The position numbers and the translations under genes were made by a program. A DNA stretch of 39,525 nucleotides from Minisyncoccia bacterium (lineage in GTDB: Bacteria; Patescibacteriota; Minisyncoccia; Phycocordibacterales; DATDWN01). The stretch spans positions 1 to 39,525 of the forward strand of contig JBAQWP010000095.1 of NCBI GenBank assembly GCA_049298975.1, written 5' to 3'. Shown one piece after another: positions 14,213-28,735 of the stretch. The notes below the pieces were generated by a model. It did not search any database. It was not told the DNA's origin and saw nothing but the letters and a program-made list of their open reading frames with translations. How positions within the stretch are numbered: the stretch's first letter is position 1; every line of letters begins with the position of its first letter.

Positions 14213-14227
14213 TTGACTTGAAGGAAA

Positions 14228-15307: not shown

Positions 15308-15344
15308 GAGGCCATAGTACTATGTTTTCAGCCTTTTGTAAAAA

Positions 15345-16613
15345 TTAGATTTTAAGTAGATTTTTTATCTTATCTTCTTTCTTTACGTTCCCAACTATTG
15401 CTAAATTGATATTTTTATCTATAAAGATTTGTTTTGCTAGTTTCTGAATATCCTGAGCAGAAATTTTATCTATTTCCTTTTCCATCTCCTTTGGTGTCTT
15501 AATATTTTCTCTCATTATCTCCTGAAAACCATAAAATCCGGCTAAGGAGTCTGAGGATTCTAGATCAAGATACATTCTGCCTATCAAGTAATCCTTTGCC
15601 TTTCGTAGTTCATCTGGTGAAACTTTGTCATTTACTATTTTTCTTACTTCTGCGAGTATCCCCTCTACCGCATTATCTAACCTACTTTTATCTACTCCTG
15701 CAGAAATAACAAAATTACCATGGTCTGTAAAATCATTTATTCCGGATCGAACATAATAACAAATACCCAGTTCTTCTCTCATTTTTTGAAACAATCTAGA
15801 GCTCATACCCCCACCCAAAATAGTAGACAAAACTTTCAAGGTTGGAATTCTTTTATCATGCAATCCAAAAGTTCTAAAACCAAACACTAAATGAGCCTGA
15901 TCTGTTTCTTTATTCTTAACTTTTATTTGGGGTGATGACTGGAATTCCCTTACCTTATTTTTCTTTATCATTTTCCCAGTAGAAATATTTTTAAATAGTT
16001 TTTCTATTCTAGAAAAAGCACTTTTAGGATTAACATCACCTGCTACAACTATGAGGGTCTTTTCTGCAACATAATGCATCCTTCGATAATTTAGAAAATC
16101 CTCGATTTTCAGTTTAGAAATATTTTCCTTTGGACCTGCAATACTCCAACCATATGGGGTGTCTCCATACATGAGCTCACCCAAAACTTCATGTACTTTT
16201 CTTTGAGGTAGGTCCTCGTACATATTTATTTCCTCGATAATCACCCCCTTCTCCTTTTCCATTTCTGCTTCGGGAAAGATTGGGTTTAGATACATATCAG
16301 AAATTATATCTAGTATCCTATCGAAATTTTTAGATGCGGATTTACCATAATAAGCAGTTATTTCGTTTGATGTAAAAGCGTTATGTTCTGCACCCATTCC
16401 ATCAAACTCCTTAGAAATGTCTAGCGAGCTTGGTCTATTTTTTGTTCCTTTGAAAAACATATGCTCTAGAAAATGAGAGATCCCATTTTTCGCTTTGGTT
16501 TCGTATTCGGAACCTGCCTCAACCATAGACATTGCTGTCACAGATGGTGCACCTTTTATAGGAACTACAATAATTCTTAAACCGTTTTTTAGTGTTTTTT
16601 TCTTAAATATCAT
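15345..16613 (-). CDS. M16 (pitrilysin/insulinase) family zinc peptidase
   Basis: Inverted zinc motif HFLEHMFFKG (HxxEH) near the N-terminus; 422 aa. Confidence 0.9.
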   Translation of the reverse strand: MIFKKKTLKNGLRIIVVPIKGAPSVTAMSMVEAGSEYETKAKNGISHFLEHMFFKGTKNRPSSLDISKEFDGMGAEHNAFTSNEITAYYGKSASKNFDRILDIISDMYLNPIFPEAEMEKEKGVIIEEINMYEDLPQRKVHEVLGELMYGDTPYGWSIAGPKENISKLKIEDFLNYRRMHYVAEKTLIVVAGDVNPKSAFSRIEKLFKNISTGKMIKKNKVREFQSSPQIKVKNKETDQAHLVFGFRTFGLHDKRIPTLKVLSTILGGGMSSRLFQKMREELGICYYVRSGINDFTDHGNFVISAGVDKSRLDNAVEGILAEVRKIVNDKVSPDELRKAKDYLIGRMYLDLESSDSLAGFYGFQEIMRENIKTPKEMEKEIDKISAQDIQKLAKQIFIDKNINLAIVGNVKKEDKIKNLLKI

Positions 16614-16664
16614 AAAGACAAATATACGACTTTCCTAACCAAAAGCAAGCCTCACAGTAATAGC

Positions 16665-17996
16665 TTAATTTAATTGAGATTTTACGAACTCGATAAGTTC
16701 TTCAACTGACATCCTTTTCTGTTCCCCAGTGTCTCTGTCACGAACTGTTACACCTGTTCCCTTTTCTATAGTTTCGAAATCTATAGTCACACACCACGGA
16801 GTTCCAATCTCGTCCTGTCTTCTATACCTTTTGCCGATATTCCCATTGTCGTCAAAAGTCACGGCACTGAATTCCGCCTTCAACGTCTTGTAAATTTCTT
16901 TTGCTTTTTCAACAAGCTCAGGTTTGTTTTTAAGTAGAGGAAATACCGCGATTTTTATTGGAGCGATTATTGGTTTGAAAGCTAGATAAGTACGTATTTC
17001 ACCATTCATTTCATCTTCCCGATAAGCTGAGGTCAACACTGCCAACATAGTTCTTCCATGTCCAAAAGAAGGTTCAACAACATGTGGTATAAATCTTTCT
17101 TTCGTCGACTCATCAAAATAAGTCAGATCTACCCCAGACCCAGTTGAGTGACTTCTTAAATCATGATCAGTTCTATATGCTAAACCATAAAGTTCCTTCT
17201 TTCCAAATGGATAATCATATTCGAAATCTATAGTTCTTTTTGAGTAAAATGCTCTGTCCTCTGCTGAAACTTCTAATTCATGAACCATGTCTTTTTTTAT
17301 ACCTACTCTTTCAATCCACTTCCACATCTCAGTTCGCCAAAACTCAAAGTATTCCTCCCAAGTATCTTCTCTTATGAAAAACTCAAATTCCATAAGATCG
17401 AACTCTCTAACTCTAAATAGAAAATCTCTTGGAGCAATTTCGTTTCTGTACGCCCGTCCGATTTGTGCTAAACCAAAAGGTAGATCTGGGTGAACAGTGT
17501 CCATTACGTTTTTAAAATTTAAAAACATTCCAGGCGCAATCTCACCTCGCAAATACGCTATGCTATCTGAAGAGCTCCCCATATTGAGTGGGAACATTAA
17601 ATTAAATGCTTTTTCCTCTCCTAAATCTCCACCACAATCAGGACATTTTTTTGATTCTAAACTTTTTTTATCGAGATGATCTGCTCTGAACCTGTGATGA
17701 CATTTTTTACATTCAATCATAGGGTCAGTAAAGCCAGATAAATGACCTGAAGCCTTCCACACAGCTTCTGGCATTATTGATGGTGTAGAAAGACCAAAAA
17801 TGTTTTCTTGTTCTTCCACAAAATGCTTCCACCATAGATCCTTTATATTATGAGAAAGGGCTGAACCATATGGTCCGTAGTCCCAAGTCCCCGCTAAACC
17901 TCCATATATCTCAGAACCCTGAAAGACAAAACCTCTCCTCTTACACAGAGAGACTATCTTCTCCATTAGGTCGTTTTTTTCAGTTTTATCTACCAT
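16665..17996 (-). CDS. glyQS: Glycyl-tRNA synthetase (dimeric class II type)
   Basis: GlyQS pattern (RGFVFQGSEIYGG, FRNEI.PR, Cys cluster CKKCHHRF...CPDCGG). Confidence 0.95.
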   Translation of the reverse strand: MVDKTEKNDLMEKIVSLCKRRGFVFQGSEIYGGLAGTWDYGPYGSALSHNIKDLWWKHFVEEQENIFGLSTPSIMPEAVWKASGHLSGFTDPMIECKKCHHRFRADHLDKKSLESKKCPDCGGDLGEEKAFNLMFPLNMGSSSDSIAYLRGEIAPGMFLNFKNVMDTVHPDLPFGLAQIGRAYRNEIAPRDFLFRVREFDLMEFEFFIREDTWEEYFEFWRTEMWKWIERVGIKKDMVHELEVSAEDRAFYSKRTIDFEYDYPFGKKELYGLAYRTDHDLRSHSTGSGVDLTYFDESTKERFIPHVVEPSFGHGRTMLAVLTSAYREDEMNGEIRTYLAFKPIIAPIKIAVFPLLKNKPELVEKAKEIYKTLKAEFSAVTFDDNGNIGKRYRRQDEIGTPWCVTIDFETIEKGTGVTVRDRDTGEQKRMSVEELIEFVKSQLN

Positions 17997-18035
17997 ATTG
18001 GTAATATACCAGAGTTTATATTTTAGCCAAGAAGA

Positions 18036-19952
18036 CTATTGTCCCACAACACTATCAGTCGATCTGTATGTAGCATCAGAAAATTGAGTGGTTACTGCCT
18101 TGTATGTATCACTAACTGGTGCTCCAACATAAGTATCAGTAGCAGTGATTTTTGTTAGTGATAAAAGTTCTGGAGTTGAACCAATTTGGTTAATACTTGG
18201 CACAATACCAACTCTAAATGAAACTGTTCTGGGTGAAGTATAATAACCAACACCTGGTGAAACACTACCAACATTCCAGGTAATAATTCTGGAATCTGGG
18301 TCATATTTTACTTTTTCAGATAAAGGAGAAACATCCCCTTTCCATATTACTCCTTCTTTTAAAGTGGCCTCAGCTGTTACATTTGATAGATCATTTGTTG
18401 TATTTGAAACGGTCCAAGTAACAGTATATGTAGTTTCCTTGTCTGCGCGCGGAGGCACTGGACCAATGTTAGTAAATGGACCAACATTCCTAAAAGATTT
18501 TGCAGTTATTGATAAGGTGGAAAGTATTTTAATTATAATATCACCTTCCGAAGTTACAACACTTGTATCAGTACCCGACCTATCACCAGAAATTTTTACA
18601 TGAACATCTAAATGAGGATTTTTAGTTTGAATAACAGTTTGAGGATCAGTTAAGGAAGTTATCGAGAATGAGACTTGGTTTCCCTCAGCGGGCAATATTT
18701 GTATTAAATCCTCATTATTATTCTTATTCCACACTAGAAGATTATCAACTGACTGATAATATCCACCCCCACCAATATTCACTTTATTGCGATCTAGGAT
18801 ATTACCACTGATCGAAGCTTCAATACGTGCATTTAATATCTTGTCGGGTAAAGTATTCCTCCACCTAACTAGGACTGTTGCTGAATCGCCAATTTTTATT
18901 GAATTTCTATTATCTACATCCATTGCAAGATCAAAAAATGATTTTCTTATACCAATAGTTACATCTTGATTTACAAGCTCAGCTTCAAACTCCTTCGAAC
19001 TGTCCTGACTCTGTGTTCCTGCAGTAATTTTGAAAGTCTTGTCTTCTTCATTTTGACCTAAAAGCACACCTGAAATCTCTAGAATTTTTTTCTCGCCATC
19101 CTTCAGATCACCTATATTCCACACAGAATTATCTCTAAATGGTTTTATGTTAGACGATTTATATGTAAAACCATATGGATAATCTATCCTGACCAAAGTG
19201 TTTTTTAAGCTTACTGCGGAGTTCGAGGTCATATTAATAACAAACTTTATCTCCTGACCTGAATTTGTTTCTTTAGGATAGTTTATGCTCACTAGAATTG
19301 GTGATGAGCCAATAGATAGTGAATATAATTTTTCTTTTGTGAAAGTGGCATTTGAACCCTTAACCTTATACTCTATTTTGAAACTAAAATCCTTAATAAT
19401 ATCTTTCTCACCAAACAAAACTGACCTGAGTGAATACTCGGTGCTGTCGCCCTTTGCAATTGTGCCAAGACTTATTCTGTCATAAATAAGTGGTTTACCA
19501 GAGGTTATTGATTGTGCACCTTCTGGATAATCCACAATAAGATAAACATCTTCCAAATCAGTTCTGTTGCCATTTATTATAGTTAAGCCAATTGGCAGTT
19601 CCTCCCCCGAAGAAACTGAACTTGGAGCAACTATTCTTACATCCAAATTATTTGAGGAGATCATATTTAAGCCCCCATAAAAAATAAACAAAGCTGTTCC
19701 GAGTGAAATAAAAAATATTATTGATGACACTAGCAGGAACTTATTAAAAAAGGAATTGTTTCTTTTTGTGGTCATTGGATCTACAGTATACTCAAAACTC
19801 TTGGGAGCACCCCAACCAGCTGGGGCATTAGTTTCTCTGCTTTCAAATGTAGATCTCTCTTCTTTAGGCAATATATCTACATTTCTGGAATATAGAGCTT
19901 TTTTAAGCTTCTCAATTCTACTATTTTCCATACTATTTTTGTCAGGATTCAT
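18036..19952 (-). CDS. Hypothetical single-pass membrane protein with large beta-rich extracytoplasmic region
   Basis: 638-aa ORF. The N-terminal cytoplasmic part is followed by one TM helix (FLLVSSIIFFISLGTALFIFYGG) and then repeated beta-type modules. Confidence 0.7.
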   Translation of the reverse strand: MNPDKNSMENSRIEKLKKALYSRNVDILPKEERSTFESRETNAPAGWGAPKSFEYTVDPMTTKRNNSFFNKFLLVSSIIFFISLGTALFIFYGGLNMISSNNLDVRIVAPSSVSSGEELPIGLTIINGNRTDLEDVYLIVDYPEGAQSITSGKPLIYDRISLGTIAKGDSTEYSLRSVLFGEKDIIKDFSFKIEYKVKGSNATFTKEKLYSLSIGSSPILVSINYPKETNSGQEIKFVINMTSNSAVSLKNTLVRIDYPYGFTYKSSNIKPFRDNSVWNIGDLKDGEKKILEISGVLLGQNEEDKTFKITAGTQSQDSSKEFEAELVNQDVTIGIRKSFFDLAMDVDNRNSIKIGDSATVLVRWRNTLPDKILNARIEASISGNILDRNKVNIGGGGYYQSVDNLLVWNKNNNEDLIQILPAEGNQVSFSITSLTDPQTVIQTKNPHLDVHVKISGDRSGTDTSVVTSEGDIIIKILSTLSITAKSFRNVGPFTNIGPVPPRADKETTYTVTWTVSNTTNDLSNVTAEATLKEGVIWKGDVSPLSEKVKYDPDSRIITWNVGSVSPGVGYYTSPRTVSFRVGIVPSINQIGSTPELLSLTKITATDTYVGAPVSDTYKAVTTQFSDATYRSTDSVVGQ

Positions 19953-19982
19953 GCCTGAAATTATACCATGGTATTTTCTTGT

Positions 19983-20564
19983 TTATAACTGACTTTCTTT
20001 TAATGCCCTGTTAATTAGGGCAACAATTTTAATTTTATTATCCTGCCCTTGTTGTAATATTTCACTACTATAGTCATCATTTTTTAAAAAATCTGTCACT
20101 TCATTGTCATCACGAACATATCCCAACTCATACATTATTCGCAAAACACTTAAAACTTCAACGATATGAATATGATCTTTCGTGACCTCAGTTAGAAATT
20201 TGAAACTCTCAACCACTGTAGAATAAACTTCCTTATGTGGTTCTTCACCTTGAATCATTTTCAATAATACAGCAGCCATCTGGGCTAGAGTTTTTCTAGA
20301 GTGATTCGGGGCCTGAAAGAAAAAATTGCCGTTTTCAGATACATTGGTTAGGTGCCAGCCATTTTTTCCTTTTACAAAAGAAAAATCACCATGAGAGAAT
20401 TCTTCGATAAGTCCTTTTAATTTTGATTTAGAAGATCTAGTAGAACGAGCTGAAGCAATAATAAGACCCAGATCTTTAGTTAAAATATACAAGAACGAAT
20501 TTTGCTCTCCCGAATTTTTTTTCTTGAGAACAATACCCTTGGTTGTATACACTCTATAAGACAT
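19983..20564 (-). CDS. recO: DNA repair protein RecO (short form)
   Basis: N-terminal OB-like segment (YTTKGIVLKKKNSGEQNSFLYILTKDLGLI) and size/context typical of reduced genomes. Lower sequence certainty. Confidence 0.6.
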   Translation of the reverse strand: MSYRVYTTKGIVLKKKNSGEQNSFLYILTKDLGLIIASARSTRSSKSKLKGLIEEFSHGDFSFVKGKNGWHLTNVSENGNFFFQAPNHSRKTLAQMAAVLLKMIQGEEPHKEVYSTVVESFKFLTEVTKDHIHIVEVLSVLRIMYELGYVRDDNEVTDFLKNDDYSSEILQQGQDNKIKIVALINRALKESQL

Positions 20565-20565
20565 A

Positions 20566-23500
20566 CTAAAAATCTAGAGTAACTGAGGATGATTCAGCTC
20601 CAGTTTCAAAGTCATATTTTTGTGGATCATTAGAGTACACCGCTCGAACAACTCCGGTCGGAGACTTGATCATTTCGAAATATTTTTCTACTATTTTTCT
20701 CTGTTCTTCCGACAAGCAGAGTGTAATGTTTATATCTTGGCTAGGATTTAGTCCATCCTTCTTGCGAGCATCTTGAATCCCGCGAATAACATCTCGAGCT
20801 ACACCCTCTTCTTTTAGGTCTAATGTAAGTTCAGTATCCAACCAGATATCTGTTTCTAAAGTATCGGTTAGTACAACAGTTTTAACATTTATCTCATCTT
20901 TAATAATCTCAAGCATTTCTGTATTATCTTTCAACTTTTCACTTTTAACTTTTAACTCTTTCAGGGGCTGCCTAACCTTATGTCCTGACTTCTGCCTTAA
21001 CTCTAATGCTTTAGTAACAATCTCACGGACCACCTTCATGTCTTCTAGAATTTTATTATCTATACTCCCCACTTCTGGCCAATCACAAAGATGCACGCTT
21101 TCTGGGTCGCTCTCTACTCTAAGTTTCAGGTACATCCTGTCTGTGAAAAATGGTGTAAATGGAGCCATGTACTTCATAAGATTTAGCAAAACATATTTTG
21201 TAGTTGCTAGTGCTTCGTCTCTCTCCTTTTTATCCTCGGATTTTAGTCTCTCTCGAGATCGTCTTATATACCAAGTCGAAAAATCATTTACGAAATCCCT
21301 TATTGACCTTGTCGCCTCGAATACTTTGTATCTGTCTAAATTTTCCGTTCCGGTGGATATGAGCTCATTTAGTTTCGAAATCACCCATTTATCGAGCACA
21401 TTTTGGCTAGCATCGTGAGCTTCAACATTTTCATCCTTGTAGAGTTCATACAAGGCCAAGATATTGTCTAGTGGATTAAAAACTTTCTTAACTATTTCAT
21501 CTACATTTTTCTCGTCAAAGTTTTTCGAATCCCCAGGTTGATTAACCGAAAACATCCAAAACCTCAAAGTATCTACTCCGTGTTTATCCATCATGATCCA
21601 TGGATCAACAACATTCCCAACTGACTTTGACATCTTCTTGCCTTGACTATCGAGTATATGCCCAAGACATATTACATTTTTAAATGAATTACCTTTACCC
21701 ATTAGTACGCCTATAGCATGTAGCGTATAGAACCATCCTCGAGTCTGATCGATTGCTTCGGAAATATAATCTGCTGGATACAAAATTTCTTTTGTAGAAA
21801 ACGGGTAGTTGTCCTGAGCAAACGGCATCGCACCTGAGTCAAACCAAACATCCATAACCTCTTTTGTTCTGGTTAACTCTTCCCCGTTTTCATCCACCAA
21901 AACAACCTTGTCTATATACGGTCTGTGTAAGTCTAGCTCGTAATTTTCGTTATGTGGAAGTGGAACAAAATTCAGCTCACGTATTTCAGAATTTTTGAGC
22001 GACTCAAGATATTTATTCTTAAGCTCCTCGAACGAGTTTCCTTCCGCGACAAATGAAAGTGCTCTTCCTGTACCAGAATGACTAACTAACATTATTTTCT
22101 TACCTTGGTACTTCGAATCTATTTCATAAAGAAACTCGCCAGCTCTTCTTACTGTTTCCGCAAAACTCTCACCGTCATTAAACTTTTTTGTTGGAGCTTT
22201 CAAATAATCGATGTCATAGAATTTAAGTATTTCTCTTCCCTTACCTTCGAATTCCGAGGCTATCTCCCACTCATGTAACCTGTCATCAAAAATGACCTTA
22301 TCAAAATCAAAACCGTTTTTTTCACAAAATATTTTCGCCGTCTGTTTTGATCTCTCGTATGGAGAACAAAATACCAAGTCTACTTTTTCTTTAAAATTCT
22401 CAGAACTTTCCTCTACTTGTTTTCTGCCATTTTCGGTAAGATTTAATTTGTCATCGTTAGTTAGAATTATTTTGTCACTAACATTGTTTTCCGCCTGACC
22501 GTGTCGCATGACAAAGAATTTATTTCCAGACTTTTTGGTGTGTTTCTTGAGCTCGTCTATTCCACCGATTACTTTGTACTTGCCGTCTTTGTTAATCCAG
22601 ACTGGTAGTGGTGTTCCCCAATACCTCTCTCGACTTATTGCCCAGTCCTTGATTTCTCTAAGCCATTCACCAAAACGCCCCTCCTTTATATATGATGGCT
22701 CCCAATTTATGTTTTCATTCTCTGAAACAAGCTTGTCTCGAAGCGTGGACATGGCGATGTACCATGAGTCCCTTGCATAGTAGATAAGCGGAGTTTTACA
22801 TCTCCAACAGTGTGGGTATGAGTGCTCATACTTTTCCTTTTTGAAAAGCAACCCTCTATGAGCCAAATCCTTTATCACATCCACAGCAACTTCTTCATCT
22901 TTTACAAACCTACCACTAAGAAAGTCCATATCATCCAAGAAATTTCCATCCTCTTTTACCAAATGATGCTTGGGCAAACCTATCTTTGTTCCCAAAACAA
23001 AGTCGTCTTGTCCGTACATAACAGCAGTGTGCACAATGCCTATTCCATCAACGGTTGTGACAAAATCAGCAATATAAACTTTGTACGCTTTTTGAAAAGC
23101 TTCTGGGGATTTATCACCAAACTTTTCTTTCATGAAAGGATAAAGTGGTTCGTATTCCATTCCAGACATTTCACTTCCCTTATGCTCTGCAACAATCTCG
23201 TACTCAACGCCTAGTACTGAAAGTCTCTCTTTTGCTAAAACTAATATTTCTTCACCCTTATCGGTCTTAACTTTTGCTTCTACGTAAACAATATTTTCTC
23301 CGACTGCCAAGGCTACATTTCCTGGAAGTGTCCAAGGGGTTGTGGTCCAAGCAAGAAAGTAACCATTGTCAGTTCCTTTTATTTTAAATTTTGCGGTAAC
23401 CGACAAATCCTTATCATCCTGATATCCTTGAGCAAGTTCGTGTGATGAAAGTGCGGTTCCACATCGAGGACACCAAGGAAGGACTTTGTAGTCCTTATAC

Positions 23501-24009
23501 AAAAGTTTTTTATCCTCAACAGTTTTAAGCACATTCCAAACAGATTCTATGTATGAGTTGTGATATGTAACGTATGGATTTTCTTTATCCACCCAGTAAC
23601 CTATTCTCTCTGTGAATTTGCTCCACAAATCCACATACTCCCAAACACTTTCTTTACATTTTTTATTGAACTCCTCTATACCATAACTCTCAACTTCTTT
23701 TTTACTCTTTAATCCCAAAGCCTTCTCCACCTGTATCTCAACTGGTAGTCCATGTGTATCCCAACCGCCCTTTCTTCGAACATGGAAACCCTGCATAGTT
23801 TTATAACGAGGAATTATATCCTTGAAAGATCGAGCTTCTATGTGGTGTATACCTGGTTTCCCGTTTGCTGTTGGAGGGCCTTCGTAAAACACAAATTCAC
23901 CCTTTGTAGATTTTTTATTCAAGGTTTTCTTAAAAATTTCTTGTTTATTCCAAAACTCGAGAGTTGCCTCCTCGTTTAAAGCTATTTGTGATTTTTTAAC
24001 GTCCTCCAT
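20566..24009 (-). CDS. ileS: Isoleucyl-tRNA synthetase carrying an internal histidine-phosphatase (PGAM-like) domain
   Basis: Class I motifs (PTANGKPGIHH, KMSKSVGN) and the editing-domain block (TTTPWTLPGN). Residues about 496-685 read FFVMRHGQAENN...LTENGRKQ...SPYERSKQTA...VSHSG. Confidence 0.95.
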   Translation of the reverse strand: MEDVKKSQIALNEEATLEFWNKQEIFKKTLNKKSTKGEFVFYEGPPTANGKPGIHHIEARSFKDIIPRYKTMQGFHVRRKGGWDTHGLPVEIQVEKALGLKSKKEVESYGIEEFNKKCKESVWEYVDLWSKFTERIGYWVDKENPYVTYHNSYIESVWNVLKTVEDKKLLYKDYKVLPWCPRCGTALSSHELAQGYQDDKDLSVTAKFKIKGTDNGYFLAWTTTPWTLPGNVALAVGENIVYVEAKVKTDKGEEILVLAKERLSVLGVEYEIVAEHKGSEMSGMEYEPLYPFMKEKFGDKSPEAFQKAYKVYIADFVTTVDGIGIVHTAVMYGQDDFVLGTKIGLPKHHLVKEDGNFLDDMDFLSGRFVKDEEVAVDVIKDLAHRGLLFKKEKYEHSYPHCWRCKTPLIYYARDSWYIAMSTLRDKLVSENENINWEPSYIKEGRFGEWLREIKDWAISRERYWGTPLPVWINKDGKYKVIGGIDELKKHTKKSGNKFFVMRHGQAENNVSDKIILTNDDKLNLTENGRKQVEESSENFKEKVDLVFCSPYERSKQTAKIFCEKNGFDFDKVIFDDRLHEWEIASEFEGKGREILKFYDIDYLKAPTKKFNDGESFAETVRRAGEFLYEIDSKYQGKKIMLVSHSGTGRALSFVAEGNSFEELKNKYLESLKNSEIRELNFVPLPHNENYELDLHRPYIDKVVLVDENGEELTRTKEVMDVWFDSGAMPFAQDNYPFSTKEILYPADYISEAIDQTRGWFYTLHAIGVLMGKGNSFKNVICLGHILDSQGKKMSKSVGNVVDPWIMMDKHGVDTLRFWMFSVNQPGDSKNFDEKNVDEIVKKVFNPLDNILALYELYKDENVEAHDASQNVLDKWVISKLNELISTGTENLDRYKVFEATRSIRDFVNDFSTWYIRRSRERLKSEDKKERDEALATTKYVLLNLMKYMAPFTPFFTDRMYLKLRVESDPESVHLCDWPEVGSIDNKILEDMKVVREIVTKALELRQKSGHKVRQPLKELKVKSEKLKDNTEMLEIIKDEINVKTVVLTDTLETDIWLDTELTLDLKEEGVARDVIRGIQDARKKDGLNPSQDINITLCLSEEQRKIVEKYFEMIKSPTGVVRAVYSNDPQKYDFETGAESSSVTLDF

Positions 24010-24039
24010 TTTTATTTTATAAATTTGTAATTTGTTATT

Positions 24040-24215
24040 TCGAATTTAAAAAACTCGTCTTCATGCAGAATAACTTCTGCACAAGGACGAGTTTTTCTCG
24101 TGGTACCACCTTGTTTATCCTGCATAGCTTTAGCGACGCAGGGCTCATTACTGCTATAACGGGCTTACCCGCCCAGTTCTACTCGCCAACAATATTGTCG
24201 ACTTTCTTCCAGGTA
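24040..24215 (-). promoter_or_regulatory. T-box riboswitch leader of ileS
   Basis: Minus strand has aacaaGGUGGUACCACGag (24117..24100), one mismatch to the GGUGGUACCGCG T-box core. It is followed by the terminator aaaaactcgtc...gacgagtttttt (24098..24051) and overlaps an alternative antiterminator pairing. The specifier codon is not identified. Confidence 0.65.
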
Positions 24216-24227
24216 GCTCGGGGGTGA

Positions 24228-25262
24228 TTAGTCCCCTCTTACGCTTACTTTCAGAATACCAGAAAAAAACTTTTGCTTCAATCCCCAAGTACTCCCATGA
24301 CTAAGTAATCCCAAGTATGACTGAACTATTTCTCTGCTTGGATTATCTTGCAGTTTCTTCTTCATCCTCCTCTTTGTACTCGTCCTTAGTACTCTGTGAT
24401 ATGGAAAATGTACAAATCCAAGAAAATCTGCTCCTGAAGAGAGTGTTTCGATTGTGACTTTATTTGGGTGAAGTTTAAGTTTCAAATTGTTTTTTAGATA
24501 TATTGCGATATATCGCAATATATTAGTGAGATAGTTTTTATCTTGGGAAAGGACGACGAAATCATCTGCATATCGAATATAGTGTTTTAGTTTCAGCTCT
24601 TGTTTTACATATTGGTCAAACTCATTCATGTAGATGTTTACTAGGAGTTGGGAGGTGAGGTTGCCTAGGGGTAAACCTTTCATATCATGCGATATATCGC
24701 ATGATATGAAATTGGGATTAGTAGTATTAAAGCTTGAGATGACCTGGCTCAGTAACCAGAGAGTGTCGGGGTCTAGGTTGTGATACTTCAGGATGCTGAG
24801 TAGTACTTCGTGATTAATACTTGCAAAGAACTTCCTTACATCACACTTTAGTACCCAACATTGTTTTGTATTGTTTTGACTTACCCTTCTGCCAAAGTCT
24901 CTAAACCTGTTCATGGCACTGTGTGTTCCTTTCCACTTTCTGCATGAGTAGGAGTCGTAGATGAACTTCTTGTCGAAGTGTGGGTAGAGCACTCTGTAGA
25001 TAGCGTGATGAAACAGTCTGTCTCGAACTGTTGCTTTGTGAATGTTTCTTGGTTTTGGGTCGGAGATGTTGAATGCGTGGTAGGGGCCATGGGTGTAGGT
25101 TTTATTTTTCAAATCTTGGTGAAGGTTGTAAACATTTTCTGAAAGGTTTAAAGAAAACTCCATTACATCCTTTTTATGTTTCTTGCCTTTTTCAAACTCT
25201 TCCCAAGCTGAAAATAGGTTTTCAAGCGATACTATTTCTTTGAAAAAATCTTTCTGTTTCAT
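24228..25262 (-). CDS. DGR-type reverse transcriptase
   Basis: 344 aa. The catalytic YADD is encoded at 24561..24572. Motif 4 LGNLTSQ (24648..24668) fits the DGR-specific [ILV]GxxxSQ signature. There is no maturase or endonuclease extension. Confidence 0.9.
   Translation of the reverse strand: MKQKDFFKEIVSLENLFSAWEEFEKGKKHKKDVMEFSLNLSENVYNLHQDLKNKTYTHGPYHAFNISDPKPRNIHKATVRDRLFHHAIYRVLYPHFDKKFIYDSYSCRKWKGTHSAMNRFRDFGRRVSQNNTKQCWVLKCDVRKFFASINHEVLLSILKYHNLDPDTLWLLSQVISSFNTTNPNFISCDISHDMKGLPLGNLTSQLLVNIYMNEFDQYVKQELKLKHYIRYADDFVVLSQDKNYLTNILRYIAIYLKNNLKLKLHPNKVTIETLSSGADFLGFVHFPYHRVLRTSTKRRMKKKLQDNPSREIVQSYLGLLSHGSTWGLKQKFFSGILKVSVRGD
24498..24523. repeat. 26-bp perfect palindrome inside the RT gene
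   Basis: atatattgcgata|tatcgcaatatat; shares the core tgcgatatatcgca with the second palindrome. Confidence 0.9.
24678..24711. repeat. 34-bp perfect palindrome inside the RT gene
   Basis: tttcatatcatgcgata|tatcgcatgatatgaaa; encodes ..FISCDISHDMK.. immediately N-terminal to RT motif 4. Confidence 0.9.
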
Positions 25263-25268
25263 GTTAAA

Positions 25269-25682
25269 ATGCTAACTAAATTAAAACACAAAATAACTAT
25301 GAATGTATCCCCCCCCCGAGAAGCACCTAGGGTTTTAGTAAAAGAGAAAGAGGTATACAAATACTGGGTTACACTCCATAGAGACTTTCCAAAAGTAGAA
25401 AGGTTTGGAATAGGTCAAAAAATTGAGCAAAGTTTTTTGGATTTACTTGAGCTTACTTTTACATCCGTGTATCTTTCGCCAGAACAAAAAATAGTCTTAC
25501 TTGGTAGAACTATTGCAAAAATGGATAACTTAAAATTTTTCATGCAACTAGCTTGGGAAGCCAAACTCATACCAACAGATAAATTTGCAAAGATTTCTCT
25601 GGACTTGGAAGAAATAGGGAGAATGCTGGGTGGATGGAGAAAGGGATTACTAGAGAAAATACAAAAAACTCCGACCGCCTAG
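25269..25682 (+). CDS. avd: Avd-like accessory variability determinant (four-helix-bundle / 23S rRNA intervening-sequence protein family)
   Basis: FPKVERFGIGQKIEQS helix-1/2 motif and C-terminal EEIGRMLGGWRKGL (compare the Bordetella phage Avd EVGRILGSWI motif). The alternative start is 25299. A C9 tract lies at 25309..25317. Confidence 0.8.
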   Translation: MLTKLKHKITMNVSPPREAPRVLVKEKEVYKYWVTLHRDFPKVERFGIGQKIEQSFLDLLELTFTSVYLSPEQKIVLLGRTIAKMDNLKFFMQLAWEAKLIPTDKFAKISLDLEEIGRMLGGWRKGLLEKIQKTPTA

Positions 25683-25698
25683 CCGGAGAAAAATTAGA

Positions 25699-25816
25699 GT
25701 TTCGGGATCACGATGCGATGACGATACTTGCCATTCCAGACGTTCGAGTTCGAGAACCGGTTGACGTTGACGTTCAGATCACGATCATCGACATTCACGT
25801 TCGCAACGAAGATTTT
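25699..25816 (-). repeat. DGR template repeat (TR), noncoding
   Basis: 118 bp aligning without gaps to 26164..26281 (offset 465). 98 positions are identical; all 20 mismatches are T on the + strand, which is A on the minus strand, in this copy. In the target frame it carries six AAC codons at variable positions. Confidence 0.92.
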
Positions 25817-26081
25817 GTGTGATAGTCCCTCCTTGCCACCACCTCTCGAAAAATATCTCGAGGTTGAATTTTACTTGGGACATACAAGTCCACCAGACTA
25901 CCACACCAACTATTTATTTTTTTATTTTATGAAAAAATATCTCCACTCTTTTGCAAGGCAAATCTGAACGCAACCCGACAAAACTCTTGAAAACATTCTC
26001 ATACACCATATTACTGAAGCCTTAACCGCAGTAAACATATGAATGCATCTTAAATTTTATATAATTTTTTACAAAACAAAA

Positions 26082-26122
26082 GCCCTCTGGCACCGACGCG
26101 CGTTGCGTAAGTGTCAGAGGGC
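26082..26122 (-). terminator. GC-rich hairpin plus U-run 3' of the target gene (terminator and/or DGR target-recognition hairpin)
   Basis: gccctctggcac (26082..26093) pairs with gtgtcagagggc (26111..26122): 12 bp with one G-U. It is followed on the minus strand by ttttgttttgt and lies about 40 nt 3' of the VR end. Confidence 0.6.
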
Positions 26123-26152
26123 CAAGGGAACAAAGGGACAGAGCGCCTAGTT

Positions 26153-26806
26153 TCAGGCGGTCTGTTGCGGGACCACGAAGCGATGACGATACCTGCCAAG
26201 CCAGACGAACGAGCGCGAGAACCGGTCGACGTAGACGTACAGATCACGAACAACGACAATCACGCGCGCAACGAAGAGGTTCGAGAGGTCGGGTAGCACA
26301 TTCGGTCCGACCTTGAAAATGAAGAATGTGCCAAATCCCTCCGTACGGAGCTTGTCGCGATGGTCTTCGCAGAACGCGATGACCTGCTTTTGGGTCAAGA
26401 CAAGCTCCGCGATCGGCCTCCCGACCGATTCAAAGATGGTCTGAAAGTTTCCGTTCTGGACCATCTCATGGATCTCGACGATCTGCTTGGGCGTCGTCGT
26501 TTCGTCGAGTTCATCCGTACCCCACGCAACGAAATCGGAGTCGATGTGGCCTGAGAAAACACGGTCTGCGTGAGCAATCGTGCCAGCCCCAGCCAGACGA
26601 CGGATGCTGATCACTTCACCCTCGTACAGACGATGGAGTACACTCTTCATTTTCGGCGCATCGGCTTGGCCTTCGAGCCACGCCTTGATAAGACGCGAGC
26701 GCCCTTCCTCGCCCAGCATGTTGACCTGCTCAGCTGTCAGCCCGTCATCTGCGAACTTGCCGAAAACAAATATCATCTGCTCGATCGAATACGGAAGTGG
26801 AGACAT
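26153..26806 (-). CDS. DGR target protein (217 aa, high GC, no signal peptide, no recognisable C-type lectin motif) with C-terminal variable region
   Basis: The ORF track has 26153..26827 with a GTG start. ATG at 26806 is preferred because of aaaggatggggacgATG (SD plus 8 nt). The VR covers the last roughly 40 codons. Confidence 0.85.
   Translation of the reverse strand: MSPLPYSIEQMIFVFGKFADDGLTAEQVNMLGEEGRSRLIKAWLEGQADAPKMKSVLHRLYEGEVISIRRLAGAGTIAHADRVFSGHIDSDFVAWGTDELDETTTPKQIVEIHEMVQNGNFQTIFESVGRPIAELVLTQKQVIAFCEDHRDKLRTEGFGTFFIFKVGPNVLPDLSNLFVARVIVVVRDLYVYVDRFSRSFVWLGRYRHRFVVPQQTA
26164..26281 (-). repeat. DGR variable repeat (VR)
   Basis: Counterpart of the TR. Encodes ...NLFVARVIVVVRDLYVYVDRFSRSFVWLGRYRHRFVVPQ; the TR frame reads ...KIFVANVNVDDRDLNVNVNRFSNSNVWNGKYRHRIVIPK. 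Confidence 0.92.
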
Positions 26807-26971
26807 CGTCCCCATCCTTTCAGGCACATCGTGCCATTGCTGGCTCAGCGTTATGCTTTGCCACAGCAGAGAAAATCCTCAAAATTGTTACCTTTAGGGC
26901 ACTTTCTGCTATAGCAAAACCCAGACAAACCACTATTTCTCATAAAAATTCAAAGATCAAATTACACAATA

Positions 26972-27000
26972 ATTATATACCTATGTACAGCTTTTGTCAA
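26972..27000 (-). promoter_or_regulatory. Consensus sigma70 promoter driving the DGR target gene
   Basis: Minus strand: TTGACA (27000..26995), exactly 17 nt spacer, TATAAT (26977..26972). It sits about 165 nt upstream of the start codon. Confidence 0.6.
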
Positions 27001-27082
27001 ATCCGATTATTTTGATATTAGATAATTAGAAATTAGAAATTTTTTAGAGTTTTTTTACAACTTGTAATTTACCAACTACTCA

Positions 27083-28735
27083 CTACATCTTTTGTGGTAT
27101 CTTTATCCCTAAAAGATCCAGCCCCTCCTCCATCACCCCAACAAAAACTTTTGTTATATATAGTCTATATGAAGAAGTTGGGTCAGTTTCATCTATTATC
27201 TTGTGACTTGCATAAAAGCTGTTGAACTCCCCCGCTAGGTCAATAAGGTATGTTACTAAATGATGCGGAGCATATTCTCTTCCTGCACGCTCTACAACCG
27301 AAGAAAACCTTCCGAGAATTTTCTCTAAATTTGTTGTCTGCCAACCTTCTGGAATTTGATATTTGATATTTGATATTTGAGATTTACTTTTTTCTAATAC
27401 TGACCTCGCTCTAACTGTCGCGTATTGTAAATATGGACCAGAATCACCGTCGAAGGAAATCGATTTGTCGAAATCAAAGACAATATCTCCTCCGAGTGAC
27501 TGCTTCAGTATGGAAAATCTTATTGCTCCCAAGGCAACATCTTCTGAAATCTCCCCTATCTCTTTGTGATTGAGCTCCCTATCTCGAATTTTATCTTCAA
27601 CTTTTTCTTTTACTTGTTTGATTAAATCTTCTGCAGAAATAATCGTCCCTGTTCTCGACGACATTTTCCCAGATGGAAGTTTTAGAATTCCATGAGAGAG
27701 ATGGAAATGTTTACCTTTAAGATCTGGGAAAACTTCCCCAACTGCAACCTCAACAACCCTAAAGAATGAGTCTTGCTCATTCGCCGTGACAGTTATCGAT
27801 TTATCGTACGTATAATAATCTTTTTTTAGTTGAGCCAAACCAAGCTCTTTTGCTTCATATACTGGCAAACCATCCGAATTCAAAAATACTCGAGTATGAG
27901 TTTTTGGAACATAGTTTTCTCCTCTAAATATTATCGCTCCACCTTCGCCCTTTTCGAAAATTATGCCCATATTTTCTTCAACAAGTTGCTGACCCACTGG
28001 ACCACTCTGACTTTCATAAAACTGATAATCAAACTTACTACCAAGCCTTTTATATAGTTCCTCAAATTTACTAAAAGATTCCTCTCTTCCCTTCTCGTAT
28101 ATTTTAGAAATTTCTGGGTCACTTTCGTCGTATATCTTTTTGTTTATCTCAACTATCTCTTGCTTGGATTGATCATTGGTCTCATACGCATTATTACCAT
28201 ACGCATAGGCATCTTCAAGTGACTGACCGTTTTTCATAGCCCAGACTGCCTTTGCAATATGCATACCGACATCACCGTTATAAGAAACAACTTTTGCCTC
28301 TGCACCATTTGCTTTAATAATTCTAGAAACTGCCTCACCTATGTTGTTACTCATTAGGTGCCCAATGTGAAAAGCTTTAAACGGATTCGGTTGAGAATGT
28401 TCGAAAATAATTTTTTGACCAGAAAGCATTTTTCCATAAGTTCTCTTTTCAATTATTCCTGCAAAATATTCAGCTGAAATAAAAAAATTAATAAACCCTG
28501 GAGGTATGATTTCTATTTTGGATATGCCAAAAATTTCCCTCTCATCTAGTTTTTGTTTTATTTGGCATGCAAGGTCAATCGGTTTTTGGGAAAGCTCCTT
28601 AGCGGAAGACATGGCGGCATTGGTAGTATAGTCCCCCAACTCAATATATGTCGGGTAATCTAAAGTAAACTTAGGATCTTTAACTCCAAGTTCTATCAAA
28701 ACTTCCTTTATATTTTTTGATAATTCCTCTCTCAC
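27083..28735 (-). CDS. argS: Arginyl-tRNA synthetase
   Basis: 550 aa with HIGH-type FHIGHLMSN, the MSSRTG loop and an ArgRS anticodon-binding C-terminus. Confidence 0.95.
   Translation of the reverse strand: MREELSKNIKEVLIELGVKDPKFTLDYPTYIELGDYTTNAAMSSAKELSQKPIDLACQIKQKLDEREIFGISKIEIIPPGFINFFISAEYFAGIIEKRTYGKMLSGQKIIFEHSQPNPFKAFHIGHLMSNNIGEAVSRIIKANGAEAKVVSYNGDVGMHIAKAVWAMKNGQSLEDAYAYGNNAYETNDQSKQEIVEINKKIYDESDPEISKIYEKGREESFSKFEELYKRLGSKFDYQFYESQSGPVGQQLVEENMGIIFEKGEGGAIIFRGENYVPKTHTRVFLNSDGLPVYEAKELGLAQLKKDYYTYDKSITVTANEQDSFFRVVEVAVGEVFPDLKGKHFHLSHGILKLPSGKMSSRTGTIISAEDLIKQVKEKVEDKIRDRELNHKEIGEISEDVALGAIRFSILKQSLGGDIVFDFDKSISFDGDSGPYLQYATVRARSVLEKSKSQISNIKYQIPEGWQTTNLEKILGRFSSVVERAGREYAPHHLVTYLIDLAGEFNSFYASHKIIDETDPTSSYRLYITKVFVGVMEEGLDLLGIKIPQKM

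What the first reader, a model, noticed from the sequence alone, without database searches (positions are those of the whole stretch)
21955..22524. Isoleucyl-tRNA synthetase with an internal histidine-phosphatase (phosphoglycerate-mutase-like) domain
A roughly 190-aa segment is inserted between the conserved ...RYWGTPLPVW... block and the ...DLHRPYID...DVWFDSG... block. It carries the full branch-1 histidine phosphatase signature: FFVMRHGQAENN (RHG...N), LTENGRKQ, SPYERSKQTA, HEWE..EFEG and VSHSG. The catalytic Arg/His/Arg/His residues appear intact, so it may be active. I know of no description of such an insertion in IleRS. It sits where the connective-peptide or zinc-binding region usually lies. 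It could couple aminoacylation to hydrolysis of a phosphorylated metabolite or nucleotide, but that is speculation.
Basis: partly seen in the sequence, partly recalled or inferred. Interest (0 to 1): 0.6.

Follow-up and report, generated by a model that had tools for sequence, protein, structure and literature searches.

The report
Phosphatase domain nested inside isoleucyl-tRNA synthetase
The only isoleucyl-tRNA synthetase of this tiny uncultured bacterium carries a complete, apparently working phosphatase spliced into a surface hairpin of its catalytic region; hundreds of related species share this, no paper I could find describes it, and the phosphatase and the synthetase body are exchanged between relatives as separate modules.

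Summary
Window 20566-24009 (minus strand) is one 1147-aa frame, and it is the genome's only IleRS. Residues 492-688 are a branch-1 histidine phosphatase (Pfam E 2.8e-27) nested in the CP2 zinc-knuckle hairpin.

It is not an assembly artefact. Hits in 446 species genomes and most sampled genomes of the class show the same architecture. All catalytic residues are invariant, dN/dS is about 0.03-0.06, and the insert alone folds at pLDDT 95.

This scan had already flagged the same architecture in at least eight other genomes. I re-tested two of those leads here and both hold: orthologues lie as a separate gene between argS and ileS, and the domain recurs in ValRS.

New here:
- Relatives carry 2-4 tandem copies, or extra HD or GNAT domains.
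- The domain sits at three different ValRS sites.
- Insert-bearing IleRS come in two body types about 49% identical, GxHH (this window) and HxGH. Body type is unrelated to insert relatedness (AU p 2e-37), and the identity breaks fall at the domain borders.

The substrate is unknown. The closest solved enzymes are small-molecule phosphatases at 20-27% identity. My best reading is a tethered small-molecule phosphomonoesterase. No paper describing it was found.

The parts
20566..24009 (-). ileS: single 1147-aa ORF, the only IleRS in the genome. Type-2 (eukaryote-like) enzyme with a DUF5915 C-terminal domain.
22537..24009 (-). IleRS N-terminal part (aa 1-491): first half of the Rossmann fold, CP1/editing domain, and CP2 up to the N-arm of the former zinc knuckle (WINKDGK).
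   Evidence: Aligns to PmIleRS2 residues 13-478. TIGR00392 positions 5-507.
23842..23853 (-). Class I signature motif in non-canonical form, G53-I-H-H56 (GxHH instead of HxGH).
   Evidence: Brkic et al. 2023 (PMC10485003) link G/AXHH IleRS2 to mupirocin hyper-resistance.
21946..22536 (-). Inserted segment aa 492-688, comprising linker KKSGN, the histidine-phosphatase domain and linker PLPHNEN.
   Evidence: It is the gap in the alignment to solved IleRS2. The insert folds autonomously at pLDDT 95.4, pTM 0.91.
22015..22515 (-). Pfam His_Phos_1 (PF00300) match, aa 499-665.
   Evidence: E 2.8e-27 to 3.4e-29.
22498..22506 (-). R502-H503-G504: the RHG motif, with H503 as the predicted phospho-acceptor.
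   Evidence: Invariant in 93 and in 59 aligned relatives.
22483..22485 (-). N509, phosphate-pocket asparagine.
   Evidence: Invariant.
22351..22353 (-). R553 (SPYERSKQT), second catalytic arginine.
   Evidence: Invariant.
22270..22272 (-). E580 (LHEWE), predicted proton donor.
   Evidence: Invariant.
22078..22080 (-). H644 (VSHSG), second catalytic histidine.
   Evidence: Invariant.
20569..21945 (-). IleRS C-terminal part (aa 689-1147): DLHRPYID, the C-arm of the former zinc knuckle, DVWFDSG, the second half of the Rossmann fold, the anticodon-binding domain and DUF5915.
   Evidence: Aligns to PmIleRS2 residues 483-869 and beyond. Pfam Anticodon_1 and DUF5915.
21622..21636 (-). KMSKS motif (aa 792-796).

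Best explanation
This is the cell's single, essential type-2 isoleucyl-tRNA synthetase. An autonomous branch-1 histidine phosphatase of about 190 aa has been spliced into the tip of the CP2 zinc-knuckle hairpin, just before the second half of the Rossmann fold. The phosphatase keeps the full catalytic set (R502, H503, N509, R553, E580, H644). I infer that it is an active phosphomonoesterase working through a phospho-histidine intermediate. It belongs to the compact small-molecule-phosphatase branch of the family (PhoE, PspA, CobC, GpgP type), not to the mutases. It behaves as a tethered module rather than as part of the synthetase's own catalytic machinery. What selection preserves is its physical or transcriptional linkage to a class Ia synthetase, not a fixed geometry. 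The substrate is not known. My best guess, marked as inference, is a small and possibly nucleotide-like phosphomonoester, for example AMP released by aminoacylation. Shown here: the architecture, conservation, autonomous fold, linkage and modular exchange. Inferred: catalytic activity, substrate class and the purpose of the linkage.
For: Architecture and essentiality:
- There is one uninterrupted ORF, and the IleRS model match is split in two by a His_Phos_1 match.
- It is the only IleRS in a genome that is 98.5% complete.
- Each of 41 genomes sampled from 41 genera of the order has one ileS, and most of these are split in the same way.

How widespread it is:
- The top 120 of 1997 protein hits all combine IleRS with PF00300.
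- 154 of 201 class genomes match the insert, about five in six of the listed matches lying in frames of 670-1370 aa.
- 446 hits in species-representative genomes encode a relative.

Signs of activity:
- The catalytic residues are invariant in 93 relatives of both body types and in 59 insert sequences.
- dN/dS on the insert is 0.03-0.06, equal to or lower than on the synthetase body.
- The insert alone is modelled at pLDDT 95.4 and pTM 0.91. Within the full-length model its blocks score 78-97.

Subfamily:
- The best structural matches are PspA, GpgP, HFP, CobC and PhoE, at TM 0.7-0.8.
- The best profile match is PhoE, at 1.2e-20.
- All NCBIfam equivalogs, dPGM included, score far below their cut-offs.

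Linkage without fixed geometry:
- Orthologous free genes sit in the order argS-hisPhos-ileS, overlapping an insert-less ileS by a few bases. On the domain tree they nest among the embedded copies.
- The same clade is inserted at three different ValRS sites and read through onto ArgRS.
- Some relatives carry 2-4 tandem copies.
- The insert works on two IleRS body types only 49% identical, and the identity breaks fall at the domain borders.

Hints on the substrate (weak):
- The embedded copies are acidic, median pI 5.7.
- No HipA or Hanks-type kinase is found in the genome.
- One free orthologue is followed by a MazG gene.
- A more distant clade is fused to a glycerophosphodiesterase.
Against: - No activity or substrate has been measured.
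- Identity to any characterised phosphatase is only 20-27%, so specificity cannot be transferred.
- About 23% of sampled class genomes have no close match (47 of 201 at E 1e-8, including all 7 of family f25). Three of 41 genomes in the order have an insert-less ileS. So the partnership is dispensable in some lineages.
- The linkers on both sides are highly conserved and modelled with high confidence. That would also fit a fixed orientation with a role in aminoacylation.
- The MazG adjacency is a single case.
- The ArgRS fusion follows trivially from gene order.
- I could not inspect model coordinates, so the position of the phosphatase pocket relative to the synthetic site, the KMSKS loop or the tRNA is unknown.
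Confidence: 0.55

Rival explanations
1. The domain is a functional phosphatase whose job has nothing to do with aminoacylation. IleRS is merely a tolerant, constitutively expressed carrier, and the nesting persists through co-expression convenience or neutral retention in a very small genome.
For: The module is exchanged independently of the body. It occurs in 1-4 copies and at several insertion sites. It is absent from about a quarter of class genomes. The IleRS hairpin also accepts other domains in relatives, such as GNAT.
Against: When the domain is not embedded, the orthologue is still kept immediately upstream of ileS with overlapping reading frames, in two separate families. The same clade has entered ValRS independently at three sites. 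This genome has four other free-standing His_Phos genes that never show this linkage and lie outside the clade.
Confidence: 0.17
2. The domain senses or binds a ligand and has little or no catalytic turnover. It binds a phosphorylated metabolite or nucleotide and tunes IleRS activity allosterically through the CP2 hairpin.
For: The linkers (KKSGN; PHNxxYELDLHxPYID) are conserved and confidently modelled. The domain sits in CP2, next to the second half of the catalytic fold.
Against: The proton-donor Glu and both His residues are invariant, which is more than binding alone would require. Tandem arrays of 2-4 copies and differing ValRS sites fit poorly with a precise allosteric relay. The domain also works as a separate polypeptide.
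Confidence: 0.1
3. It is a tRNA-end repair enzyme that removes a 2'- or 3'-phosphate from the tRNA acceptor end so that the tRNA can be charged. In the longer variants it might cooperate with the C-terminal HD domain.
For: The domain is linked to three different class Ia synthetases whose shared macromolecular substrate is tRNA. A subset of relatives adds an HD phosphohydrolase domain. From my own knowledge, the HD domains of bacterial CCA-adding enzymes have 2',3'-cyclic phosphodiesterase and phosphatase activity.
Against: The embedded copies are acidic, with median pI 5.7 and net charge -4. The nearest solved relatives all act on small molecules. I know of no branch-1 histidine phosphatase that acts on RNA ends. 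In ArgRS the domain is attached at the anticodon-binding end.
Confidence: 0.08
4. It is a built-in protein phosphatase that reverses inhibitory phosphorylation of the synthetase, for example on the KMSKS loop as HipA- and HipT-type kinases do to other class I synthetases, or of another translation component.
For: From my own knowledge, the superfamily includes protein phosphatases (SixA, Sts-1, PGAM5), and toxin kinases do target class I synthetases. SixA and Sts-1 appear among the weak profile matches.
Against: No HipA_C or Pkinase match exists in this 98.5%-complete genome. The best structural and profile matches are small-molecule phosphatases, with protein phosphatases far down the list.
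Confidence: 0.05
5. It is an assembly chimera, a frameshift, or an intein-like element that is removed from the mature protein.
For: None was found.
Against: The same in-frame architecture appears in hundreds of independent assemblies, including long contigs. There is no stop codon and no composition step. Pfam found no intein or Hint domain. Strong purifying selection acts across the junctions.
Confidence: 0.01

Closest known systems
Compact branch-1 histidine phosphatases: PhoE/YhfR (1EBB, 1H2E), metal-independent phosphoserine phosphatase PspA (4IJ5, 4IJ6), CobC alpha-ribazole phosphatase (6E4B, 6NRU), glucosyl-3-phosphoglycerate phosphatase Rv2419c (4PZ9), riboflavin-pathway HFP (9MMH)
   Same: They are about 190-210 aa with the same fold (TM 0.7-0.8) and the same R-H-N-R-E-H catalytic set. 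None has the dPGM C-terminal tail.
   Different: Identity is only 20-27%. No NCBIfam equivalog cut-off is reached. All of these enzymes are free-standing, whereas this one is nested inside an aminoacyl-tRNA synthetase or encoded directly upstream of one.
Type-2 IleRS (IleRS2), e.g. Priestia megaterium 8C8U/8C8V/8C8W, Thermus thermophilus 1ILE, and the G/AXHH subclass of Brkic et al. 2023 (PMC10485003)
   Same: The body is a full-length IleRS2 (E 1e-240 to the solved enzymes) with the type-2 C-terminal domain, KMSKS and a natural GIHH signature motif.
   Different: It carries a 197-residue catalytic domain in the CP2 zinc-knuckle hairpin, and the four cysteines of that knuckle are lost in this window. 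Relatives with the same insert have the canonical HYGH body instead.
IleRS with an appended N-acetyltransferase domain (NCBIfam NF040702, ileS_w_GNAT) and other synthetases with accreted catalytic domains
   Same: It follows the same principle: an essential synthetase serves as the scaffold for an extra enzyme domain. One relative, P0248, has both His_Phos and GNAT.
   Different: The window's protein scores 311 bits against a cut-off of 1999 for that model. The added domain is a phosphatase, and it is nested internally rather than appended.
Rv2228c-type bifunctional RNase H / acid phosphatase (NCBIfam NF005567)
   Same: It is a CobC/PhoE-like histidine phosphatase fused to a nucleic-acid enzyme, and it is among the best NCBIfam matches to the insert (57.6-60 bits).
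   Different: The score is far below the cut-off of 326. The fusion partner differs, and that fusion is terminal rather than nested.

Membership tests
Histidine phosphatase superfamily, branch 1 (Pfam PF00300) | Profile match above the curated gathering score | tested here: met
   96.1 bits in the whole protein and 101.5 bits on the excised insert, against a cut-off of 21.7.
Histidine phosphatase superfamily, branch 1 (Pfam PF00300) | RHG motif with the nucleophilic His, plus a second Arg, a Glu proton donor and a second His | tested here: met
   R502, H503, G504, N509, R553, E580 and H644 are present and invariant in 93 and in 59 relatives.
Histidine phosphatase superfamily, branch 1 (Pfam PF00300) | Alpha/beta fold of the family | tested here: met
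   The AF2 model scores pLDDT 95.4. Foldseek probability is 1.00 with TM 0.7-0.8 to solved members.
Histidine phosphatase superfamily, branch 1 (Pfam PF00300) | Phosphomonoesterase or mutase activity through a phospho-histidine intermediate | not testable with these tools
   This needs an enzyme assay with an H503A control.
Cofactor-dependent phosphoglycerate mutase (dPGM; NCBIfam NF038349, TIGR01258 and others) | Equivalog score cut-off, and a length of about 230-250 aa with the C-terminal tail | tested here: not met
   61.5-66 bits against a cut-off of 225. The domain is about 190 aa with no tail, and dPGM structures align at rmsd 6-9 Å with lower target coverage.
PspA, CobC, SixA, GpmB and acid-phosphatase equivalogs (NCBIfam) | Curated equivalog cut-off | tested here: not met
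   All fall below their cut-offs: CobC 55.8-61 vs 162.9, PspA 44-48.5 vs 350, SixA 31.5-36 vs 74.5.
Isoleucine--tRNA ligase (TIGR00392) | Equivalog score, KMSKS motif and a class I signature motif | tested here: met
   869.6 bits against a cut-off of 621.4. KMSKS lies at aa 792-796. The signature motif is present in the non-canonical GIHH form.
Type-2 IleRS (IleRS2) | Closest to solved IleRS2 enzymes, with the type-2 C-terminal domain | tested here: met
   Best PDB hits are PmIleRS2 and TtIleRS (E 1e-240 to 1e-221), while IleRS1 (1FFY, 8C9F) scores about 1e-98. DUF5915 is present.
Acquired mupirocin-resistance IleRS, MupA/MupB (NCBIfam NF000257, NF000258) | Exception-model cut-off | tested here: not met
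   752-779 bits against a cut-off of 1900.
G/AXHH hyper-resistant IleRS2 (Brkic et al. 2023) | First and third positions of HXGH swapped, in an IleRS2 background | tested here: met
   The motif is G53-I-H-H56, matching the definition in PMC10485003. Resistance itself was not tested.
Intein or other excised element | Hint/intein domain and splice-junction residues | tested here: not met
   The Pfam scan of the whole protein gave no intein or Hint match at E <= 0.01. Both junction linkers are conserved as ordinary protein sequence.

The most novel reading that the evidence does not exclude
The histidine phosphatase is a dedicated, exchangeable partner module of class Ia aminoacyl-tRNA synthetases in Paceibacteria, with a role tied to the aminoacylation cycle such as removal or salvage of a nucleotide product. 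Separately, the ileS locus of these bacteria holds two anciently diverged body types, GxHH (linked to antibiotic hyper-resistance) and canonical HxGH. These body types are repeatedly swapped between close relatives while the phosphatase module is kept, re-installed, or rescued as a gene upstream of ileS. That pattern would point to long-term balancing selection by natural IleRS inhibitors.
Probability: 0.25. Interest if true: 0.78.

Novelty: new variant of a known kind. Interest (0 to 1): 0.62.

Why it matters
Aminoacyl-tRNA synthetases are among the best-studied enzymes. Extra domains on them have repeatedly revealed new biology, such as editing, signalling and resistance. Here a whole class of uncultured, ultra-small bacteria keeps an intact phosphatase inside its only IleRS, or directly in front of it. 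No publication I could find mentions this.

If the phosphatase acts on a product or by-product of aminoacylation, it would be a new kind of coupling between translation and phosphate or nucleotide metabolism in organisms that depend on salvage.

The modular exchange of phosphatase and synthetase body is of interest in its own right. It includes switching between a motif linked to antibiotic hyper-resistance and the canonical motif within single genera. That bears on how essential genes evolve under antibiotic pressure in natural communities. The domain also marks a permissive insertion site that could be useful for engineering IleRS.

Tried and rejected
- **Chimera or frameshift:** rejected on the breadth of independent assemblies.
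- **A second, insert-less IleRS in the genome:** none found.
- **dPGM or another named equivalog:** every cut-off was missed.
- **[quoted passage not shown]:** I held this. I withdrew it when the independent 33-species set showed that inserts are also sometimes discordant with recO.
- **ArgRS fusion as independent evidence of a functional link:** downgraded, because the free gene lies directly downstream of argS, so a read-through fusion is expected.
- **Basic charge of the free-standing copies as a sign of binding in trans:** it is only a tendency (9 of 16 in one clade), so I do not rely on it.
- **Protein-phosphatase idea:** weakened by the absence of HipA and Hanks kinases.
- **8C8W as a natural GVHH enzyme:** corrected. 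The paper states that wild-type PmIleRS2 is HVGH and that GVHH is their mutant.
- **Word-based search for free-standing homologues of the insert:** it gave only 3 hits and was of little use.
- **Body type from identity alone in the class sample:** identity to the window's N-body forms a continuum from 43% to 73%, so types could not be called that way.
Full report
**1. The observation**

Window 20566-24009 (minus strand) is one uninterrupted 1147-aa ORF.

- Pfam places His_Phos_1 (PF00300) at aa 499-665 with E 2.8e-27, 96 bits against a cut-off of 21.7. On the excised piece the E-value is 6.4e-29.
- The class I synthetase domain is split into two stretches around it, followed by Anticodon_1 and DUF5915.
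- NCBIfam's ileS equivalog scores 869.6 bits (cut-off 621.4), again in two stretches.
- Against solved structures, query 12-491 aligns to residues 13-478 of P. megaterium IleRS2 and query 689-1069 to residues 483-869. So about 197 residues replace a 4-residue loop.
- G+C content shows no discontinuity at the borders.

**2. Where the insert sits**

Brkic et al. 2023 give the IleRS2 catalytic core as residues 40-168 and 513-632, separated by CP1 (with the editing domain) and CP2. The insertion point, PmIleRS2 478-483, therefore lies in CP2.

In most relatives the flanking arms read W-x-C-x-x-C and L-V-C-x-C-G-G. The domain thus emerges from the tip of a four-cysteine zinc-knuckle hairpin. In this window's protein all four cysteines are gone (WINKDGK and VDENGE).

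**3. It is real, essential and widespread**

- The window's genome (833 kb, 98.5% complete) has only this IleRS. The other hits to the model are ValRS, LeuRS and MetRS.
- In 41 genomes from 41 genera of the same order, each has one ileS. Most are split by the insert and three are not.
- A search using residues 470-720 returned 1997 proteins. The top 120 all combine IleRS domains with PF00300, and sources name them Paceibacterota, Patescibacteria, Parcubacteria or Nomurabacteria.
- In 201 genomes sampled across the class, 154 match the insert at E <= 1e-8. About five in six of the listed matches lie in open frames of 670-1370 aa.
- A pattern scan of species-representative genomes found 446 hits that encode a relative. 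Among the named records are the 2013 RAAC4_OD1_1 genome, the 2015 GW2011 Nomurabacteria, Zambryskiibacteria, Vogelbacteria and Minisyncoccia.

A chimera or frameshift is excluded on this breadth.

**4. It looks like a working enzyme**

- In 93 full-length relatives covering both body types, R502, H503, G504, N509, R553, E580, R622 and H644 are invariant. The same core is invariant in 59 insert sequences from other genomes.
- Against three close relatives, dN/dS on the insert is 0.03-0.06, equal to or below the synthetase body. dS is saturated, so these are rough values.
- The insert alone is modelled at pLDDT 95.4 and pTM 0.91. In the full-length model (pLDDT 88.3, pTM 0.75) its blocks score 78-97.
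- Structural neighbours are compact small-molecule phosphatases: PspA, GpgP Rv2419c, riboflavin-pathway HFP, CobC and PhoE, at TM 0.7-0.8 and 20-27% identity. The best profile match is PhoE at 1.2e-20.
- Mutase-type and every other NCBIfam equivalog cut-off is missed by a wide margin.

So it is a member of the superfamily, of the phosphatase type, with no transferable substrate assignment.

**5. Linkage to synthetases (earlier leads re-tested)**

This scan's earlier notes on other genomes reported a separate upstream gene in relatives and recurrence in ValRS. I tested both.

*The upstream gene.* I examined 15 genomes whose best match is a free gene of about 190 aa.
- In four, all from family f18, the gene lies immediately upstream of an insert-less ileS on the same strand, overlapping it by a few bases.
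- In three, from family f56, it lies 0.7-2.5 kb upstream.
- In at least three of the four f18 loci and in all the f56 loci the order is argS-hisPhos-ileS.
- These free genes score 114-140 bits against an HMM of embedded inserts. The genome's own four free-standing His_Phos paralogues score 24-54 bits.
- On a domain tree, three of the four paralogues fall outside the clade (SH-aLRT 96). The f18 and f56 free genes each form a clade nested among embedded copies. The backbone of that tree is weakly supported.

*ValRS.*
- P0214 is 60% identical to this genome's ValRS and carries the domain after DTWFSSG...GWP.
- P0176 is a ValRS with one copy after PQWF and three tandem copies after WGHRIPVWY, the site equivalent to the IleRS site.

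*ArgRS.* P0204 is an ArgRS with the domain at its C-terminus. Given the argS-hisPhos gene order, this is a simple read-through fusion and weaker evidence.

*Other variants.* These include two tandem copies in IleRS, an added C-terminal HD domain in proteins of about 1330 aa, and His_Phos plus GNAT.

**6. New: insert and synthetase body are separate evolutionary modules**

- Among 108 full-length insert-bearing IleRS, the bodies fall into two main types: 69 and 34 sequences, plus 5 others. Identity is 74% within a type and 49% between types.
- Insert identity is the same within and between types, 0.525 against 0.516.
- The nearest-insert neighbour shares the body type in 56 of 102 cases, which is the chance level of 0.55.
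- On an insert tree the body-type label needs 17-19 changes, as many as shuffled labels. Well-supported branches alone force at least 7. An AU test rejects a single type-1 clade (delta lnL 520, p 1.8e-37).
- The types differ in the class I signature. Type 0, including this window, has G-I-H-H. Type 1 has the canonical H-Y-G-H.
- Brkic et al. showed experimentally that G/AXHH in an IleRS2 background gives mupirocin hyper-resistance. I did not test resistance here.

Syntenic loci make the mosaic concrete.
- L032 and L033 are close relatives: ArgRS 78%, M16 peptidase 85%, RecO 71%. Their inserts are 90% identical (86% at the DNA level). Their IleRS N- and C-bodies are 48% and 55% identical (56-58% DNA). 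The steps fall at about aa 481-490 and 685-695.
- The window against L030 shows the same pattern: insert 79%, bodies 47-51%.
- Within one genus (g5), the N-bodies of G121 and G148 are 73% and 45% identical to the window's.

In an independent set of 33 species representatives, pairs with different motifs and pairs with the same motif have equal recO identity (0.41 and 0.40) and equal insert identity (0.43 and 0.42). Their body identity differs (0.45 and 0.63). Many of the closest pairs by recO differ in body type. The insert is also sometimes discordant with recO: L061 and L111 have recO 0.84, insert 0.35 and body 0.80.

I therefore claim independent exchange of two modules with breakpoints at the domain borders. 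I do not claim strict vertical descent of the insert.

One plausible route for the argS-hisPhos-ileS arrangement is displacement of an insert-bearing ileS by an insert-less one, with the phosphatase surviving as a stand-alone gene. This is inference.

**7. What it most likely does**

*Shown:* the domain is an autonomous fold with an intact catalytic set under purifying selection. It is kept attached to, or co-transcribed with, a class Ia synthetase. It tolerates different scaffolds, sites and copy numbers.

*Inferred:* it is an active phosphomonoesterase that acts as a tethered or co-expressed module.

Evidence against the alternatives is indicative, not decisive.
- Against a direct tRNA substrate: the embedded copies are acidic, median pI 5.7.
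- Against a protein-phosphatase role: the genome has no HipA or Hanks kinase, and protein phosphatases of the family are distant matches.

Weak hints towards small or nucleotide-like substrates:
- the nearest solved enzymes;
- a MazG gene directly after one free orthologue;
- a glycerophosphodiesterase fused or adjacent to a more distant clade.

My estimates are as follows.

| Claim | Probability |
|---|---|
| Architecture as described | about 0.95 |
| Catalytic competence | about 0.8 |
| Small-molecule substrate | about 0.55 |
| AMP specifically | no more than 0.2 |

**8. Novelty**

Seven literature searches and a targeted look in a 2026 IleRS evolution preprint found no description of a histidine phosphatase in any aminoacyl-tRNA synthetase. 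The library does not cover most subscription journals.

The architecture is visible in precomputed domain tables, and this scan noted it on at least eight other genomes. So it is undescribed rather than rare. I classify it as a new variant of a known kind: accretion of a catalytic domain onto a synthetase. The modular exchange with two signature-motif body types is an additional, apparently unreported feature.

Noticed in passing
window 24228-26827: A complete diversity-generating retroelement lies between ileS and argS. It comprises a reverse transcriptase (24228-25262, minus), a bAvd accessory protein (25269-25682, plus), a template repeat at 25699-25812, and a variable repeat at 26164-26277 in the C-terminus of ORF 26153-26827 (minus). 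All 18 mismatches between the two repeats fall on T of the plus strand, which is A on the RT's strand. The syntenic relatives L029-L031 lack this cassette at the same position.
   Followed up: partly
window 12773-28735 and loci L029-L034: Gene order is conserved across distant Paceibacteria: argS - variable segment - ileS - recO-like - DUF11/CLIPPER-like 637-aa protein - class II synthetase (tRNA-synt_2b) - M16 peptidase - AI-2E transporter - metS. In relatives a nucleotide-salvage cluster lies upstream of argS (dNK/thymidylate kinase, dUTPase, nucleoside deoxyribosyltransferase, SHMT, NUDIX, CYTH).
   Followed up: partly
G000 contigs C79:11919-12497, C69:5065-5547, C87:4078-4662, C41:13512-14069: This 833-kb genome has four further free-standing His_Phos_1 genes, five in all with the insert. 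Three of the four fall outside the insert clade on the domain tree.
   Followed up: partly
proteins P0015, P0030, P0047, P0065, P0075, P0117 (relatives, about 1330 aa): A subset of insert-bearing IleRS also carries an HD phosphohydrolase domain (PF01966, motif H...LLHDMGN) within or after the C-terminal DUF5915 region. These single synthetases therefore carry two different phosphohydrolase domains.
   Followed up: partly
protein P0248 (relative, 1066 aa): This IleRS carries His_Phos, a C-terminal GNAT acetyltransferase and a Y1_Tnp (IS200-like) match inside the CP1 region. It suggests that this synthetase accepts several foreign domains.
   Followed up: no
loci L014-L019, proteins P0212, P0216, P0241, P0204: Nine of 16 members of the free-standing clade closest to the embedded copies are strongly basic (pI 8.8-9.9, net +3 to +16). 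Embedded copies are acidic (median pI 5.7). This could reflect binding in trans to an acidic partner or to RNA, or merely amino-acid composition.
   Followed up: partly
L028:6880-8232 and protein P0253: A more distant clade of the same phosphatase family is adjacent to a glycerophosphodiester phosphodiesterase (L028) or fused to one (P0253). This suggests glycerol-phosphate-type substrates in that clade.
   Followed up: no
G000 C67:6640-8847: The genome's ValRS frame is reported with one in-frame TAA near its C-terminal part. I did not examine it.
   Followed up: no
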